DNA from: a virus
Lineage: Duplodnaviria; Heunggongvirae; Uroviricota; Caudoviricetes
Length of the DNA stretch: 19,672 nt
Direction: 5' to 3' (one strand)
IMG/VR virus record: IMGVR_UViG_2531839666_000030
Coordinates: 1-19,672 of that record
Shown here: positions 8,926-13,274 of the stretch, piece by piece
Position numbering within the stretch: position 1 is the first letter of the stretch
Layout of the letters: each line of letters starts with the position of its first letter
Notes under the pieces: model-generated
Seen by the model: the letters and a program-made list of their open reading frames with translations, nothing else
The model's database searches: none
Told to the model about the DNA's origin: nothing
Program-made: the position numbers and the translations under genes

Positions 8926-9477
8926 ATGATGATTTTACAACCCATGGGGCGAAAAGGCCGTGCACCCGCTCATGTCCGTGCGTGGACACCTGAAGAAGAT
9001 GCACTGCTGATTGCGCTTTATCCATCCACCCCGGTTAAGGATATTGCTGTCAGGGTAAAAAGAAGTTTCTGGGGTGTACATAACCGGATTGTTTTATTAC
9101 GCGGTACTTACCCGGAGTTGCTCAAATGCAAACGTCCAAGATTTAAACATGATGAAGATAAATTTATCCGAAAAAATGCCAGAACGATGACCGGTAAGCA
9201 AATAGGAGAATATCTGGGGCGAGACCGGGATTCTGTCCACAAACGGGCGCGATATATTGGCGTAAGCATGAAAAAATACGGAGAGTTGCTGCCCTTCACC
9301 CGTATACCTGATGATGATGTTCATCTTATTCGTGAATTACGGGATGCTGAATCACCACGACGTCTTACCTTCCGGGAAATAGGCGAGAAATTTGAATTAT
9401 CCGAGAGTACGGTGAATTTTATTTATCACCATCGCCGGACTGCCGAGGACGCTGTATTACGGGAGTTAACGCCATGA
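8926..9477 (+). CDS. putative DNA-binding protein (Myb/SANT-like N-terminal segment, C-terminal HTH)
   Basis: 183 aa with AGGGGG Shine-Dalgarno 6-7 nt upstream. WTPEEDALLIALY...KDIAVRV...GVHNR looks Myb/SANT-like; LTFREIGEKFELSESTVNFIYHHRR resembles a sigma-70 region-4 / LuxR-type HTH. Pattern-level inference. Confidence 0.45.
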   Translation: MMILQPMGRKGRAPAHVRAWTPEEDALLIALYPSTPVKDIAVRVKRSFWGVHNRIVLLRGTYPELLKCKRPRFKHDEDKFIRKNARTMTGKQIGEYLGRDRDSVHKRARYIGVSMKKYGELLPFTRIPDDDVHLIRELRDAESPRRLTFREIGEKFELSESTVNFIYHHRRTAEDAVLRELTP

Positions 9478-9659
9478 TAAAGAGACTTGTATTTTTCGCA
9501 ATTTTCGTTCCGGTGTTGGGGGTTGGTTTTATATTTGCGATTACAGGAAACCTGTCCATGATGCCAGATATTTGGTTCTTTATCAGGATGTCGCTCTTCC
9601 TGTTTATTATGAATCTTCTTATCGACATATATATCCGTATTACTGGAAAACATAAATGA
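9474..9659 (+). CDS. small hydrophobic membrane protein (61 aa, two predicted TM helices)
   Basis: MIKRLVFFAIFVPVLGVGFIFAITG...IWFFIRMSLFLFIMNLLIDIYI contains two hydrophobic stretches. ATGA overlap with upstream stop. Gene is AT-rich. Confidence 0.5.
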   Translation: MIKRLVFFAIFVPVLGVGFIFAITGNLSMMPDIWFFIRMSLFLFIMNLLIDIYIRITGKHK

Positions 9660-10030
9660 GAAAAATCACGTCCTTGTCAGAGTTACAGGAGATGAATATG
9701 AGTATTGAATTAAGATCGTCTTATGAGTATCGCAAATTTCTTATCGCCGGAGGCATGAAACCGGAAGATGTGGAAAAAATCGTTTCTTTTATGGATAAGG
9801 AATGTGATAAGCGGGATGTGTCAGAAATTATTATGGATGACATGATTCTGGATTCAGTCGTAGCGTTAAGTCCGTTATGGATTGTGCATTCTCTTGCTGA
9901 AATTGCCAAAGGCACCGATAAACAGGCAGCTGTTGCTGCCCTTCAGACGCTTAATGAAATGCGTATATCTCCACGCCCGACATTAATACATATGATTCTG
10001 TCCAGCATGGAGGATAAAGCAAATGAATAG
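9656..10030 (+). CDS. hypothetical acidic protein (124 aa)
   Basis: ATGA overlap with previous gene; AT-rich; no recognised domain. Internal ATGs at codons 14 and 16 are alternative starts. Confidence 0.45.
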   Translation: MRKITSLSELQEMNMSIELRSSYEYRKFLIAGGMKPEDVEKIVSFMDKECDKRDVSEIIMDDMILDSVVALSPLWIVHSLAEIAKGTDKQAAVAALQTLNEMRISPRPTLIHMILSSMEDKANE

Positions 10031-10220
10031 TCTACCCGCTGGATGGGCGCGCCCTCTGATGGCTAAGAAGCATCATTTTTTTAAAACTGGCGATAATATC
10101 AGTATATGTAGGCGGTGGTTATATCTGGCTCATAATCGCGAGCCGGATACATTTGAAAGCCCTGATGACTGTGCCGAATGTCGCAGAAGACTGAATAAGG
10201 AGAAAGATAATGGACAGTAG
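10023..10220 (+). CDS. hypothetical small Cys-containing protein (65 aa), possible zinc-binding
   Basis: Overlaps previous gene by 8 nt. Contains ICRRW and DDCAECRRR (C...CxxC). Speculative. Confidence 0.35.
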   Translation: MNSLPAGWARPLMAKKHHFFKTGDNISICRRWLYLAHNREPDTFESPDDCAECRRRLNKEKDNGQ

Positions 10221-10506
10221 TTCGCAGTTGTTCTGGTGTTTATATATCACATCGTTTTTCGGTGCATTCGTCATTACACGATGGCTGTGCCGGAAAGTTA
10301 TCAGTATTTTTCATAAAAAATACCTGATTGGGCAGGCGGCGACTTCTCTGATTAATGCACTTGCCAGATATCATAAGGGGGAATACTACTCAAGAATAAA
10401 AACTGATGATGGTTTTAATATTTTTGTGATTCCTCCGGAGTATCGGGTTCAGCTCGATCGGGAAAGTAATATCTATCATATCAGCAGGAGTGTTGATACA
10501 GCATGA
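10210..10506 (+). CDS. hypothetical membrane-anchored protein (98 aa, N-terminal TM segment)
   Basis: N-terminal LFWCLYITSFFGAFVITRWL is hydrophobic. Overlaps neighbours at both ends. Confidence 0.45.
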   Translation: MDSSSQLFWCLYITSFFGAFVITRWLCRKVISIFHKKYLIGQAATSLINALARYHKGEYYSRIKTDDGFNIFVIPPEYRVQLDRESNIYHISRSVDTA

Positions 10507-11012
10507 GAGGGAAACTGATATCCGCTATTCATGTGGCAAAGCGCGAGCTTGCCCTGGATGATGAGACCTACACATTCGTACTACTGGCAGCCACCGGCAA
10601 AACCAGTTGCCGGGATATGTCACCCGGTGAGTTATCCCGCGTGCTGGATGTTTTCAAAAAACGCGGTTTTAAAGTGCGTCAGAAACCGGTTAACCGGGCC
10701 TTAAAACCGGGTACGGTGACCGCCAAAATTCGCGCCATCTGGAAAGTGATGCACCGGCAGGGCTTTATCTCTGATGGTGCGGAAACCGCTCTTAACCGCT
10801 GGGTGAAATCGCAGACGGCCGCGCAGAACGGCGGCGAAGGTGTGGCAAACTGGCAGTGGCTGGAGCAACACCCCGCCCTGGCCTCAGATGTGCTGGAGCG
10901 TCTCAAGCGATGGCACCGCCGCAAAATGCTGGCCGCGATGGGAATGCCCGAACGCACGCTGATGGGGTATGACGCCGTTTGCAGGCAGTATGAAAAATCA
11001 CTTCCCCGTTAA
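10503..11012 (+). CDS. gemA: GemA-like protein (Mu gp16 family, DUF1018-like)
   Basis: N-terminal KLISAIHVAKRELALDDETYTFVLLAATGKTSCRDMSPGELSRVLDVFKKRGF matches the conserved GemA/gp16 signature as recalled. Lies immediately upstream of mor as in Mu. Confidence 0.78.
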   Translation: MRGKLISAIHVAKRELALDDETYTFVLLAATGKTSCRDMSPGELSRVLDVFKKRGFKVRQKPVNRALKPGTVTAKIRAIWKVMHRQGFISDGAETALNRWVKSQTAAQNGGEGVANWQWLEQHPALASDVLERLKRWHRRKMLAAMGMPERTLMGYDAVCRQYEKSLPR

Positions 11013-11016
11013 CCCC

Positions 11017-11047
11017 AAATCCCGCCACAACGCGGGATTTTTATTTT
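11017..11047 (+). terminator. intrinsic (Rho-independent) terminator candidate between gemA and mor
   Basis: 9-bp stem AAATCCCGC (11017-11025) / GCGGGATTT (11032-11040), 6-nt loop CACAAC, followed by TTTTATTTT. Confidence 0.7.
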
Positions 11048-11081
11048 AAACTTACCGGGAACGCGAGAACCGGAGGCTGAT

Positions 11082-11507
11082 ATGGCAGAAACTCAGATGA
11101 GCATGTTTGGTGGTGACAGTGAGCAACTGCACGCCCTTATCGACCGCCTTGATGACATCCCTGATGATGTTCTCAAAAAGAACTGGCCGCGGACCCTGTC
11201 AGAACTGGTTGAAGTCACCGGCGCAGAACTTCAGCGTCAGGGGATTGAGCCGGTACTGGCCGGTAAACTGGCACGCAAGGTGGCTGCGGCTCAGGCAGCC
11301 TATATGGGCGGACGGGGTTATTACCTGCCGGTCGGGGAATCTCTCTTTGCCGAGCTGCGAAACAATGAGATATTTTCGCGCTGGGACCGGGGCGAGAAAA
11401 TTGAATCCCTTCGCCGCCATTACCGGATGTCAGAAACCCAGATTTATACCGTCATACGTGAACAGCGCCGTCTGCATCTGGCAAGAACGCAACCGCCACT
11501 TTTCTGA
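11082..11507 (+). CDS. mor: Mor/C-family transcriptional activator (middle/late gene activator)
   Basis: 141 aa. Acidic N-terminus and C-terminal GGRGYYLPVGESLFAELRNNEIFSRWDRG...SETQIYTVIREQRR parallel the Mu Mor/C fold (GGxxxYIP...HTH) as recalled. Sits between gemA and lys. Confidence 0.8.
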   Translation: MAETQMSMFGGDSEQLHALIDRLDDIPDDVLKKNWPRTLSELVEVTGAELQRQGIEPVLAGKLARKVAAAQAAYMGGRGYYLPVGESLFAELRNNEIFSRWDRGEKIESLRRHYRMSETQIYTVIREQRRLHLARTQPPLF

Positions 11508-11578
11508 TATTCCGCAAAGCCTGCCGCCTTTCCTTCACCGTTACGCTGACTCAGAGAACATCATGAGACAGCGTAACA

Positions 11579-12079
11579 ATGCCAAAACTCCCCGCACCAC
11601 TGCGTAAAAAGCTGATTGCCCTTGTTCTGGCCGGTGCCGGGACGTTCACGATTGCCACGCATTACACCGGTTACTGGGAAGGGAAAGAAAACTCCACGTA
11701 TATCGATCCCACCGGTACACCCACCATCTGTTACGGCCATACCGGCCCGGATGTGAAACCGGGTATGACCCTGACGGATGAAGAATGCCTGGAACTACTG
11801 GAAAAGGACATGAAATGGGCCTTTGCGGCCATTGATCGGCGTGTTCAGGTGCCGCTTACCCGTGGTCAGACGGTGGCGCTGGCTTCGTGGATCTTCTGGG
11901 CCGGTGAAACGAACTTCCGCAACTCCACGCTTCTGCGCCTGATCAATGCCGGGCAGATGCCCGCGTCCTGTAAGCAGTATATCCGCTGGATTTATTCAAA
12001 GGGGGTGAAACTCCCCGGCCTTGAGGCCCGCCGTTCGGCGGATGAATGGTTATGTCGCTACGACTTGCCGAAAGTCTGA
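11579..12079 (+). CDS. lys: endolysin, T4-lysozyme-like (GH24) with N-terminal SAR-type signal-anchor
   Basis: 166 aa. Gly/Ala-rich weakly hydrophobic N-terminus KKLIALVLAGAGTFTIAT, then catalytic-region motifs YWEGKENSTYIDPTGTPTICYGHTG (E...D...T triad) similar to Mu Lys as recalled. Confidence 0.88.
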   Translation: MPKLPAPLRKKLIALVLAGAGTFTIATHYTGYWEGKENSTYIDPTGTPTICYGHTGPDVKPGMTLTDEECLELLEKDMKWAFAAIDRRVQVPLTRGQTVALASWIFWAGETNFRNSTLLRLINAGQMPASCKQYIRWIYSKGVKLPGLEARRSADEWLCRYDLPKV

Positions 12080-12152
12080 ACCGCTTCTGGCGACCGCTCA
12101 TGATAGCGCTGCTGTGTGCGGTACTGCTGTTACGGGGTGTCCTGTGGCTGCG

Positions 12153-12542
12153 GTGAATAATGCCTTACCGGCCCTGATTGCCGGGGCGTGCATGGCGGCG
12201 CTGGGGATTATCGCTGTACTGGTTGCTGCGATATGGGGAATGCACCAGAAGACGCAGCGCCTTGAGGACAATAATCAGGTACTTGTACGTGAGCGGGATG
12301 AGGCGCGTCAGGTGCTGGCAAATCAGCAGCACACCCTGCAACTCATTTCACAAATCAGTGAGGCGGCCACGAATGAAAAGCAACAGAACATTCAGCACAC
12401 CGAGGAGCAACAGAGCGTTGTCCGCCGGTCGCTGGCAGCAGTGCCTGCTGCCTCTGCCCCTGTTCCTGATGATGTGGCTGATCGGGTGCGCCGGGCCGTC
12501 TGTGAAATACGTGCCTGTGAAGCCGGTGCCGATCCCCGCTGA
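12153..12542 (+). CDS. i-spanin (Rz-like inner-membrane spanin); start uncertain (GTG 12153, ATG 12192 or ATG 12042)
   Basis: N-terminal TM segment LPALIAGACMAALGIIAVLVAAIWG followed by a charged, Gln/Glu-rich predicted coiled coil. Immediately follows the endolysin and contains an embedded out-of-frame lipoprotein gene. Confidence 0.6.
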   Translation: MNNALPALIAGACMAALGIIAVLVAAIWGMHQKTQRLEDNNQVLVRERDEARQVLANQQHTLQLISQISEAATNEKQQNIQHTEEQQSVVRRSLAAVPAASAPVPDDVADRVRRAVCEIRACEAGADPR

Positions 12543-12744
12543 ATGGCTGGCTGACTGCCTGGTCCCTCCTGCGCCGGAGCCGTTCACGTTTGGGGCATCG
12601 GTCACTTACAACCTGCAACTGCTGGCGGTGATCAAGAACTGCAACGTGGACAAGGCCAGTATTCGTCGTCTGGAGGCGCGGCGACAACATGAATTTACTG
12701 ATATGGCCGGAACGCCTGCTGTTCCGGCAGGAAAGACGAAGTAA
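12373..12744 (+). CDS. o-spanin (Rz1-like outer-membrane lipoprotein), overlapping the i-spanin gene in the +1 frame
   Basis: Lipobox L-I-G-C after a hydrophobic stretch (LLPLPLFLMMWLIGC), then a proline-rich mature region CAGPSVKYVPVKPVPIPAEW...PPAPEP. Start may instead be the in-frame TTG near 12418, which is preceded by GAGGAG. Confidence 0.72.
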   Translation: MKSNRTFSTPRSNRALSAGRWQQCLLPLPLFLMMWLIGCAGPSVKYVPVKPVPIPAEWLADCLVPPAPEPFTFGASVTYNLQLLAVIKNCNVDKASIRRLEARRQHEFTDMAGTPAVPAGKTK

Positions 12745-12754
12745 GGAAAAAGGT

Positions 12755-12982
12755 ATGGATGATTCAGATCGTGCTCAGGCTGTGATGGAGCGGGGATCAG
12801 AACGCGCCCTTTGTAACCGGCTGACACGTAAGCGCCGGGCAATGGATGCTCCGGGCAGACGTGTCTGCGCGGACTGTGGCGGAGAGATCCCCGCCGCACG
12901 TCTTGTTGCTGTGCCGGATGCCATCCGTTGTGTGAACTGCCAGAACATCATGGAGGCCCGTCATGTGGGTCAGCATCGTTAA
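12755..12982 (+). CDS. TraR/DksA-family C4 zinc-finger protein
   Basis: 75 aa from ATG 12755, which has AAGGAAAAAGG upstream. C-terminal CADCGGEIPAARL...PDAIRCVNCQ is the CxxC-(17)-CxxC signature of the DksA/TraR zinc finger. Confidence 0.78.
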   Translation: MDDSDRAQAVMERGSERALCNRLTRKRRAMDAPGRRVCADCGGEIPAARLVAVPDAIRCVNCQNIMEARHVGQHR

Positions 12983-13274
12983 AGATTATGTTGTGCCGAT
13001 CCTTTCGGCGACGGCAACCGCTGGCGGGATATTCATGGCGCTGATGCGCAAAACGTTTGTCCCCCGCGAGGCCTTTGAAAAACTCTCCGACCGCGTTGAG
13101 AAGGTGGAAACCCGCCTGTCGTCACTGCCGACAGAAGCTGAGGTCAACCGTCTGAATGTGGAAATCGTGACCCTGCGGGGTGAACTGAAAACCACGAACG
13201 CCACGCTCCGCTCTGTCTCCTATCAGAACGAACTGCTGCTGGAGCAGGCTGTAAGGAAAAAAACGAATGAGTGA
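12963..13274 (+). CDS. single-pass membrane protein with coiled-coil (DUF2730-like); possible lysis-associated protein
   Basis: 103 aa. N-terminal TM VVPILSATATAGGIFMAL, then heptad-like region EKLSDRVEKVETRLSSLPTEAEVNRLNVEIVTLRGELK. GGAGG upstream of the ATG. Function inferred only from position after the lysis genes. Confidence 0.5.
   Translation: MWVSIVKDYVVPILSATATAGGIFMALMRKTFVPREAFEKLSDRVEKVETRLSSLPTEAEVNRLNVEIVTLRGELKTTNATLRSVSYQNELLLEQAVRKKTNE

What the first reader, a model, noticed from the sequence alone, without database searches (positions are those of the whole stretch)
11082..11578. No separate C gene between mor and lys
In Mu the Mor-dependent middle promoter drives C, which then activates the late promoters, and C lies upstream of lys. 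Here lys starts 71 bp after the single Mor/C-family gene. Either this phage uses one activator for both steps, or its late activator is encoded elsewhere. The 71-bp gap (11508-11578) must hold the promoter for the lysis and head operon.
Basis: partly seen in the sequence, partly recalled or inferred. Interest (0 to 1): 0.45.

Follow-up and report, generated by a model that had tools for sequence, protein, structure and literature searches.

The report
Single C-type late activator, Mu-like prophage
This Mu-like prophage has only one Mor/C-family regulator gene, which looks like phage Mu's late activator C sitting next to a C-type promoter for the lysis genes; this one-activator layout is the ordinary state of Mu-like phages, and Mu's extra regulator Mor is the exception.

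Summary
A 141-aa Mor-family gene lies at 11082-11507. lys starts 71 bp later, at 11579. No second Mor/C gene exists in the window or in the complete, 98%-identical prophage.

The label "mor" is probably inverted. The protein matches Mu C better than Mor (39% against 27% identity). Its 39% equals the divergence of the flanking orthologues gemA, lys and o-spanin (39-43%). It carries both clamp-binding motifs described for MuC and sits directly upstream of lys. What this phage lacks relative to Mu is mor plus gp18-20.

The 71-bp gap holds a conserved box (11504-11525), then a variable spacer, then a -10 hexamer TACGCT (11542-11547). The same box, spacing and -10 recur upstream of protease gene I. 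The pentamer CGCAA ends exactly 24 nt before the -10, the geometry of all four Mu C-dependent promoters.

A hairpin with a U-run (11017-11040) separates gemA from the activator gene. How the activator gene is switched on is unresolved; terminator read-through is my best guess.

The layout is common. 84 of 86 related viral loci and 63 of 77 GenBank phage records have one Mor/C gene; only the 14 Mu-group records have two. This is an ordinary feature and a new member of a known kind.

The parts
10503..11012 (+). gemA (gp16) homologue, last recognisable gene of the early region
   Evidence: Pfam GemA E=9.5e-30; 43% identical to Mu GemA.
11017..11050 (+). Hairpin AAATCCCGC-cacaac-GCGGGATTT followed by TTATTTTAAA; an intrinsic-terminator-like element between gemA and the activator gene
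   Evidence: Found by the terminator scan. RNA fold gives -13.5 kcal/mol, z=-4.6, comparable to the hairpin after Mu mor (-12.2). The arms are conserved and the loop varies in lineages whose activators are 49-57% identical to this one. Its function as a terminator is inferred.
11047..11052 (+). TAAACT, a possible weak -10 for the activator gene (speculative)
   Evidence: A -10-like hexamer (TAAACT, TATACT or TATAAT) follows the hairpin in four lineages. There is no -35, and the consensus promoter scan found nothing here. It is not in register with the late-promoter geometry.
11082..11507 (+). Single Mor/C-family activator gene (141 aa), C-type
   Evidence: Pfam Mor E=2.8e-32. 39% identity to Mu C against 27% to Mor. 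PDB best hit 9l0x 'Late transcription activator C', E=1e-26, against Mor 1rr7 at 2e-9. Carries QMSMF (residues 5-9) and QPPLF (137-141), matching the clamp-binding motifs of PMC12867686.
11504..11525 (+). Late-promoter box CTGATATTCCGCAAAGCCTGCC, the predicted activator binding site; it overlaps the activator's stop codon
   Evidence: Invariant except one position (G/T at 11519) in variants whose activator protein is 83-88% identical, while the adjacent spacer varies. A second copy lies upstream of gene I. CGCAA ends 24 nt before the -10, as at the Mu late promoters.
11542..11547 (+). -10 hexamer TACGCT of the lys promoter; predicted start site about 11553-11554; no -35 hexamer
   Evidence: Conserved block GTTACGCTGACTCAG. 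Same spacing to the box as at the gene I promoter. No sigma-70 consensus promoter in 9500-13000 on the + strand. The start site is inferred.
11579..12079 (+). lys, endolysin, first gene of the late lysis/head operon
   Evidence: Phage_lysozyme E=6.3e-37; 39% identical to Mu gp22.
19431..19483 (+). Second copy of the same promoter type upstream of protease gene I: box 19431-19452, -10 TATGCT 19469-19474, ATG 19481
   Evidence: Pattern match with 0 mismatches. Footprint in relatives. The downstream ORF hits Mu-like_Pro.

Best explanation
The 141-aa protein is the phage's only Mor/C-family activator and works like Mu C. It binds a box centred near -43 in promoters that lack a -35 hexamer and recruits host sigma-70 RNA polymerase. 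One such promoter fills the 71-bp gap (box 11504-11525, -10 at 11542-11547) and drives lys and the downstream lysis and head genes. A second one drives protease gene I.

The phage has no Mor tier. Its cascade is early to late rather than early to middle to late. The activator gene lies behind a terminator-like hairpin at the end of the early region. It is most likely expressed by limited read-through from the early promoter. Because no terminator follows it, its transcripts continue into lys. The two clamp-binding motifs suggest that late transcription is also coupled to phage replication, as reported for MuC.

Shown here: gene content, family membership, absence of a paralogue, conserved promoter anatomy, and the commonness of the layout. 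Inferred: DNA binding, start sites, read-through and clamp coupling.
For: Family and C-likeness:
- Pfam Mor hit.
- Mu C 105 bits against Mor 51.6 bits.
- PDB best match is 'Late transcription activator C', E=1e-26; Mor is 2e-9.
- Invariant linker residues G76, Y81, P83 and near-invariant G77 are present; G85 is invariant in the narrower alignment.
- Synteny with equal divergence: gemA 43%, C 39%, lys 39%, o-spanin 39%, Mor 26%. Mu gp18-20 have no homologue.

No paralogue.

Promoter:
- A 45-nt colinear pattern occurs exactly twice in the window, upstream of lys and of I. The same two sites are the only ones in the 42.5-kb full-prophage locus.
- In variants whose activator is 83-88% identical, the box and -10 are conserved while the spacer varies.
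- In 14 late promoters from five lineages the pentamer C-N-N-A-A ends exactly 24 nt before the -10. These include the four experimentally defined Mu promoters as annotated in AF083977.
- There is no sigma-70 consensus promoter.

Clamp motifs: QMSMF and QPPLF against the consensus Qx[D/E][L/M]F and QPDLF (PMC12867686).

Terminator-like hairpin. No comparable hairpin lies between the activator gene and lys.

Generality: one Mor/C gene in 84 of 86 viral loci and in 63 of 77 GenBank phage records. The gemA-activator-lysis order is also seen in Pmp9 and SuMu; MuM16-1 has gemA-activator with lysozyme several genes downstream.
Against: - 138 of 143 family representatives score higher against Mu C than against Mu Mor. 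Mor is therefore a divergent outlier, and 'closer to C' alone does not prove orthology.
- Only two copies of the box were found. None was found for tail genes or com/mom, whereas Mu has four late promoters.
- The box is not an obvious dyad.
- No start-site, binding or expression data exist for this phage.
- The hairpin resembles Mu's early terminator in stem, loop, energy and U-run. From my recollection of the Mu literature (not retrieved here), read-through of that terminator does not suffice for C expression. Read-through may therefore be insufficient here, and a promoter for the activator gene may exist.
Confidence: 0.75

Rival explanations
1. One self-activating regulator. The activator also binds the perfect palindrome upstream of its own gene (the hairpin DNA) and stimulates its own promoter. 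A trickle of read-through then flips a positive-feedback switch that replaces the Mor-to-C relay.
For: CCCCAAATCCCGCC at 11013-11026 matches the core of the late box with 2 mismatches. It is one of only five such matches (two or fewer mismatches) in the 42.5-kb locus, and three of the five lie upstream of the activator gene, lys and I. The arm AAATCCCGC is identical to part of the gene I box. In Mu the Mor site is likewise the early-terminator palindrome. A -10-like hexamer follows the hairpin in four lineages.
Against: The full 22-nt box scores only 14/22 there; P=0.08 in shuffles. It is out of register with the N24 rule by 1 or 4 nt. The hairpin arms stay the same in lineages whose late boxes differ (CGTAA/TCCC, CGGAA/TCCC), so they do not co-vary with activator specificity. 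Variants L023, L035 and L036 lack the left arm or the whole hairpin.
Confidence: 0.15
2. The gene is a true Mor-type middle regulator. Late promoters are activated by a non-homologous protein encoded elsewhere, for example the TraR/DksA zinc-finger protein (12689-12982) or the early HTH protein (8926-9477).
For: The gene directly follows gemA, as mor does. A DksA/TraR zinc-finger ORF and an HTH ORF do exist.
Against: The zinc-finger gene lies inside the lys operon, so it cannot start that operon. The late promoters have the Mu C geometry. The protein is more C-like and carries both clamp motifs. There is no second Mor/C gene for a 'middle' regulator to switch on.
Confidence: 0.06
3. The prophage is a defective Mu derivative that lost mor and the middle operon by deletion, and the arrangement is non-functional.
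For: Relative to Mu, about 1.2 kb (mor-gp18-20) is absent.
Against: The same layout occurs in 282 of 5426 complete E. coli genomes, with up to 5 copies per genome at different sites. It occurs in four diverged lineages and in isolated phages. The intergenic elements are conserved. The related O157 Mu-like prophage Sp18 was judged intact in PMC2669165, though I did not verify its identity with this prophage.
Confidence: 0.03

Closest known systems
Phage Mu late activator C (gp21) and its promoters Plys, PI, PP, Pmom
   Same: Same protein family. 39% identity and almost the same length (141 against 140 aa). The gene sits directly upstream of lys. Both N- and C-terminal clamp-binding-type motifs are present. 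Target promoters lack a -35 hexamer and carry a conserved box whose promoter-proximal pentamer ends 24 nt before the -10.
   Different: The box sequence differs: CTGAWATYCCGCAAA here against TTAT-N5-6-ATAA in Mu. Only two box-bearing promoters were found, against four in Mu. No terminator lies between the gene and lys. The gene is not preceded by a Mor-dependent promoter or by gp18-20.
Phage Mu middle regulator Mor (gp17) and promoter Pm
   Same: Same family. Like mor, the gene follows gemA. A hairpin palindrome with a T-run lies between the early region and the next gene, as at Pm/t9.2.
   Different: Only 27% identity. The C-terminal motif is QPPLF rather than Mor's QPSLL. The gene is separated from gemA by 69 bp instead of overlapping it. 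The hairpin lies upstream of the gene, not downstream. There is no second family member to activate.
Single Mor/C activators of other Mu-like phages (SuMu, KS10, BcepMu, Pmp9, MuM16-1, Vibrio and Pseudomonas transposable phages)
   Same: One family member per genome, next to gemA and upstream of lysis or head genes. It is annotated variously as 'Mor' or 'late transcriptional activator'.
   Different: In several of them the gene overlaps gemA and is followed by a terminator. Here the terminator-like hairpin precedes it.

Membership tests
[quoted passage not shown] | Significant match to the family profile over the whole domain | tested here: met
   E=2.8e-32, 111.3 bits against a cutoff of 24.9; residues 34-140 cover profile positions 2-107 of 107.
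[quoted passage not shown] | Invariant beta-strand linker GG-x3-Y-x-P-x-G (C residues G70, G71, Y75, P77, G79; PMC2582627) | tested here: met
   G76, G77, Y81, P83 and G85 are present in YMGGRGYYLPVGE. They are invariant or nearly invariant in family alignments.
[quoted passage not shown] | Small protein (about 100-150 aa) with an acidic N-terminal half, a basic C-terminal half and a C-terminal helix-turn-helix | tested here: met
   141 aa. Read from the sequence, the N half is rich in D/E and the C half in R/K. It aligns end to end with solved C and Mor chains, including their HTH.
[quoted passage not shown] | Binds a dyad-like element centred near -43.5 and activates a sigma-70 promoter lacking a -35 hexamer | not testable with these tools
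   Only the promoter anatomy is consistent. No binding or transcription data are available.
C-type (late) activator, functional counterpart of Mu C | Gene directly upstream of lys, with the lys promoter in the intervening gap | tested here: met
   71-bp gap holding a conserved box and -10.
C-type (late) activator, functional counterpart of Mu C | Closer to C than to Mor, at the divergence level of neighbouring orthologues | tested here: met
   39% against 27% identity; neighbours 39-43%. Caveat: most family members are closer to C.
C-type (late) activator, functional counterpart of Mu C | Two clamp-binding motifs, N-terminal Qx[D/E][L/M]F and C-terminal QPDLF (PMC12867686) | tested here: inconclusive
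   QMSMF (5-9) and QPPLF (137-141) are near-consensus by reading. Q137 and L140 are nearly invariant in the family. Clamp binding was not tested.
C-type (late) activator, functional counterpart of Mu C | A shared box upstream of several late operons (four in Mu) | tested here: inconclusive
   Two copies, at lys and I, with identical spacing. None was found for tail genes or com/mom.
C-type (late) activator, functional counterpart of Mu C | Expressed from a Mor-dependent middle promoter | tested here: not met
   The prophage has no Mor and no second family member. This is a feature of the Mu cascade, not of the protein's mode of action.
Mor-type (middle) regulator | Last gene of the early operon, overlapping gemA, followed by the early terminator/Pm | tested here: not met
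   A 69-bp gap with the hairpin lies upstream of the gene, not downstream.
Mor-type (middle) regulator | Its target is the promoter of a second Mor/C-family gene | tested here: not met
   No second gene exists.

The most novel reading that the evidence does not exclude
The perfect palindrome AAATCCCGC-N6-GCGGGATTT upstream of the activator gene is both the early-operon terminator (as RNA) and a high-affinity site for the activator itself (as DNA). One protein then forms a self-amplifying switch that does the job of Mu's Mor-to-C relay. The Mu Pm/t9.2 arrangement would be a derived, duplicated version of this ancestral design.
Probability: 0.15. Interest if true: 0.5.

Novelty: new member of a known kind. 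Interest (0 to 1): 0.2.

Why it matters
It corrects a likely mislabel. Single Mor-family genes in Mu-like prophages are routinely called "Mor", but here, and probably in most relatives, they behave positionally and by sequence like the late activator C. It gives a concrete, testable promoter map for the lysis/head and protease operons of a prophage found in about 5% of complete E. coli genomes, including many Shiga-toxin producers. It also shows that Mu's textbook three-tier cascade is a Mu-group speciality rather than the norm. None of this is surprising to a Mu specialist.

Tried and rejected
- Weak tblastn hit of Mu Mor at 5452-5565 (E=0.005-0.05). I rejected it as a paralogue: the family HMM gives nothing there and the ORF has no Pfam hit.
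- Eye alignment of the gap with the Mu C-to-lys gap first suggested that the Mu hairpin was the C site. The annotated Mu promoter coordinates showed that the C box lies after the terminator, so I dropped that alignment.
- Family-wide alignments A1 and A2 could not be used for the search for related loci because no stretch was conserved enough. I used four single-protein scans instead.
- Autoregulation test: the box score upstream of the activator gene is not significant (P=0.08) and is out of register. I kept it only as a minority hypothesis.
- A Pm-like promoter with the hairpin centred at -43.5: the variants with 83-88% identical activators have TGTAAT at the right distance, but the window has AACGCG there (read by hand). 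Rejected for this window.
- A second Mor/C hit in L060 is a 67-aa truncated duplicate beside an insertion, not a second activator. The weak second hit in L056 (E=5.5e-5) was not examined.
- No Rfam family and no tRNA in the window.
- I searched for a paper stating explicitly that Mu-like prophages have one Mor/C gene. I found only gene lists that imply it.

Full report
**What the window is.**
The window holds the left 18.7 kb of a Mu-like transposable prophage inserted in a truncated Na+/H+-exchanger (KefC-like) gene. The gene order is:
- repressor (1298-1816, minus strand), ner, transposase A and B;
- small early ORFs, gam, a gp11-like gene, gemA (10503-11012);
- a Mor-family gene (11082-11507);
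- lys (11579-12079), spanins, a TraR/DksA zinc-finger ORF, DUF2730, gp27;
- large terminase, portal, F, G, and the start of protease gene I.

Prophages 97-98% identical occur in 282 of 5426 complete E. coli genomes, at different sites and with up to five copies per genome.

**Checking the observation.**
The coordinates are right. The ORF at 11082-11507 encodes 141 aa with a strong Shine-Dalgarno sequence and hits Pfam Mor at E=2.8e-32. lys starts at 11579, the first start codon of its frame, so the gap is 71 bp.

I looked for a second family member in three ways.
- tblastn with Mu Mor, Mu C and the 141-aa protein, down to E=20, against the window and a complete prophage. That prophage is L002 from NZ_CP075665; it is 98.2% identical and its activator is 100% identical.
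- A profile HMM built from 143 family representatives plus Mu Mor, Mu C and the 141-aa protein, run with filters off on all six-frame ORFs of at least 40 aa. It gave one hit at E about 1e-49; the next best was E=4.
- The RefSeq annotation, which lists one Mor-family protein.

There is no second gene.

**Which Mu gene does it correspond to?**
In Mu (AF083977) mor overlaps the end of gemA. After it come the middle promoter Pm, gp18-20, C (140 aa), a terminator, Plys in a 94-bp gap, and lys.

Several lines place the window's protein with C.
- It is 39% identical to C (105 bits) and 27% identical to Mor (51.6 bits).
- Its best solved-structure relatives are 'Late transcription activator C' (E=1e-26), against Mor at 2e-9.
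- The flanking orthologues are equally diverged from Mu: gemA 43%, lys 39%, o-spanin 39%. Mu gp18, gp19 and gp20 have no homologue.
- The protein carries QMSMF at residues 5-9 and QPPLF at its C-terminus. These match the two clamp-binding motifs recently shown to be needed for MuC-dependent transcription. Mor has only a partial N-terminal motif (PMC12867686).

One caveat applies. 138 of 143 family representatives also score higher against C than against Mor. Mor is thus the divergent outlier, and similarity alone is weak evidence. Synteny and the promoter evidence carry the argument.

I conclude that the gene is the counterpart of C. The block this phage lacks relative to Mu is mor-gp18-gp19-gp20.

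**The 71-bp gap.**
I aligned the window with relatives whose activator protein is 83-88% identical. This shows a classic footprint.
- CTTTTCTGATATTCCGCAAA(G/T)CCTGCC is conserved.
- The next ~14 nt vary.
- GTTACGCTGACTCAGAGAACA(T/C)CATGAGACAGCGTAACAATG is conserved.

The same box, the same 15-nt spacing and a TTAYGCTG block occur upstream of protease gene I (19431-19475). These are the only two matches in the window. The same two sites are the only ones in the 42.5-kb full-prophage locus. The gene I copy shows the same conserved-variable-conserved footprint. There is no -35 hexamer and no consensus sigma-70 promoter here.

I then lined up 14 late promoters by their -10 hexamers. The set comprised the four Mu promoters as annotated, the two from this window, and promoters from the 84% variant and from lineages with 57%, 49% and 45% identical activators. 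In every case a pentamer of the form C-N-N-A-A (CATAA, AATAA, CGCAA, CGTAA, CGGAA, GGTAA) ends exactly 24 nt before the -10 and is followed by a C-rich stretch. This puts the box centre near -43, as reported for C and Mor (PMC2582627, PMC4287176).

The gap therefore does hold a C-type late promoter:
- box 11504-11525, overlapping the activator's stop codon;
- -10 TACGCT at 11542-11547;
- predicted start near 11553-11554;
- leader of about 25 nt.

Binding and start sites are inferred, not shown.

**How the activator gene itself is expressed.**
The 69-bp gap after gemA holds a 9-bp-stem hairpin followed by UUUUUAUUUU (-13.5 kcal/mol, z=-4.6). It is very like the hairpin after Mu mor (-12.2), which is Mu's predicted early terminator and overlaps the Mor binding dyad. 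No terminator follows the activator gene, whereas Mu has one (-16.1) before Plys.

My best guess is limited read-through from the early promoter, giving a two-tier cascade. Delay would come from the terminator and, by analogy with MuC, from dependence on clamps loaded during phage replication.

I tested the alternative that the activator binds the palindrome and activates itself.
- In favour: a 14-nt core of the box matches there with two mismatches.
- Against: the full box scores 14/22 (P=0.08). It is out of register with the N24 rule. The hairpin arms stay constant in lineages whose late boxes differ. Some variants lack the arm or the hairpin altogether.

I keep this alternative at about 15%.

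**Is the layout unusual?**
No.
- 84 of 86 IMG/VR loci from four activator lineages, with up to 10 kb on each side, contain one family member. The Mu control contains two. One of the two exceptions is a truncated duplicate; the other, a weak second hit, was not examined.
- Of 77 GenBank phage records matching Mu Mor, 91 places were found in all, and the 14 records listed with two places are all Mu-group phages: Mu, D108, SfMu, PhiR68_1 and Yersinia vB_YpM phages. The other 63 have one each; 17 of these were not listed individually. They come from Vibrio, Pseudomonas, Burkholderia, Pasteurella, Shewanella and other hosts.
- Published gene lists for SuMu (gp16, Mor, peptidoglycan-recognition protein) and KS10 (gp16, Mor, protease) show the same thing.
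- Pmp9 has activator then amidase. MuM16-1 has gemA overlapping the activator.

**Verdict.**
It is mislabelled, because C is present and Mor is absent. The feature is ordinary for Mu-like phages. It is a new member of a known kind, and interest is low. The open point is how the single activator gene is switched on.

Noticed in passing
window 19431-19483: The promoter-like element upstream of protease gene I leaves only 6 nt between the -10 (TATGCT, 19469-19474) and the ATG (19481), with no Shine-Dalgarno sequence. This predicts a leaderless mRNA. The same -10-N6-ATG geometry is seen in lineages with 49-57% identical activators (CACACT-GGCGGC-ATG, GACAAT-GGGGGA-ATG). An inverted repeat, CCGGC-ttatgct-GCCGG, brackets the -10.
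   Followed up: partly
window 12689-12982 (+): A TraR/DksA-type C4 zinc-finger ORF (Pfam 7.7e-12) lies inside the lysis operon. A DksA-like zinc-finger gene sits at the same place in Pasteurella phage Pmp9. It may act on host RNA polymerase late in infection.
   Followed up: no
window 8926-9477 (+): An early ORF of 183 aa has several sub-threshold helix-turn-helix matches (AsnC-type, sigma-70 region 4). It is an uncharacterised DNA-binding candidate and could regulate the activator gene.
   Followed up: no
window about 18711-18790 (-), = L002 19146-19225: RefSeq annotates a 'tRNA-OTHER' between genes F and G of the near-identical prophage. ARAGORN and Rfam find nothing there in the window.
   Followed up: partly
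window 11013-11030; loci L017, L023, L024: A mosaic junction lies inside the gemA-activator hairpin. Relatives with different upstream genes become identical to the window from CCACAGCGCGGGATTTTT onward. L023 has lost the left arm of the hairpin.
   Followed up: partly
L060 8483-8686: A 67-aa truncated duplicate of the activator lies 1.4 kb downstream of the intact gene, flanking inserted ORFs. It looks like the scar of an insertion.
   Followed up: partly
L042, L043, L047, L059 upstream and downstream of the activator gene: In the lineage with a 45% identical activator, TGCGCA-containing palindromes lie about 18.5-19 nt upstream of -10-like hexamers, both before the activator gene and (in L042) before the next operon. 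They are unrelated to that lineage's late box and may be an operator for another regulator.
   Followed up: no
window 1-1005 and about 1006-1300: The window starts with a truncated Na_H_Exchanger (KefC-like) gene. The prophage left end lies just after it, so the phage has disrupted a host potassium-efflux gene.
   Followed up: no
window 11563-11607 (+): A 14-codon mini-ORF (ATGAGACAGCGTAAC...) begins in the predicted lys leader and overlaps the lys start in another frame.
   Followed up: no
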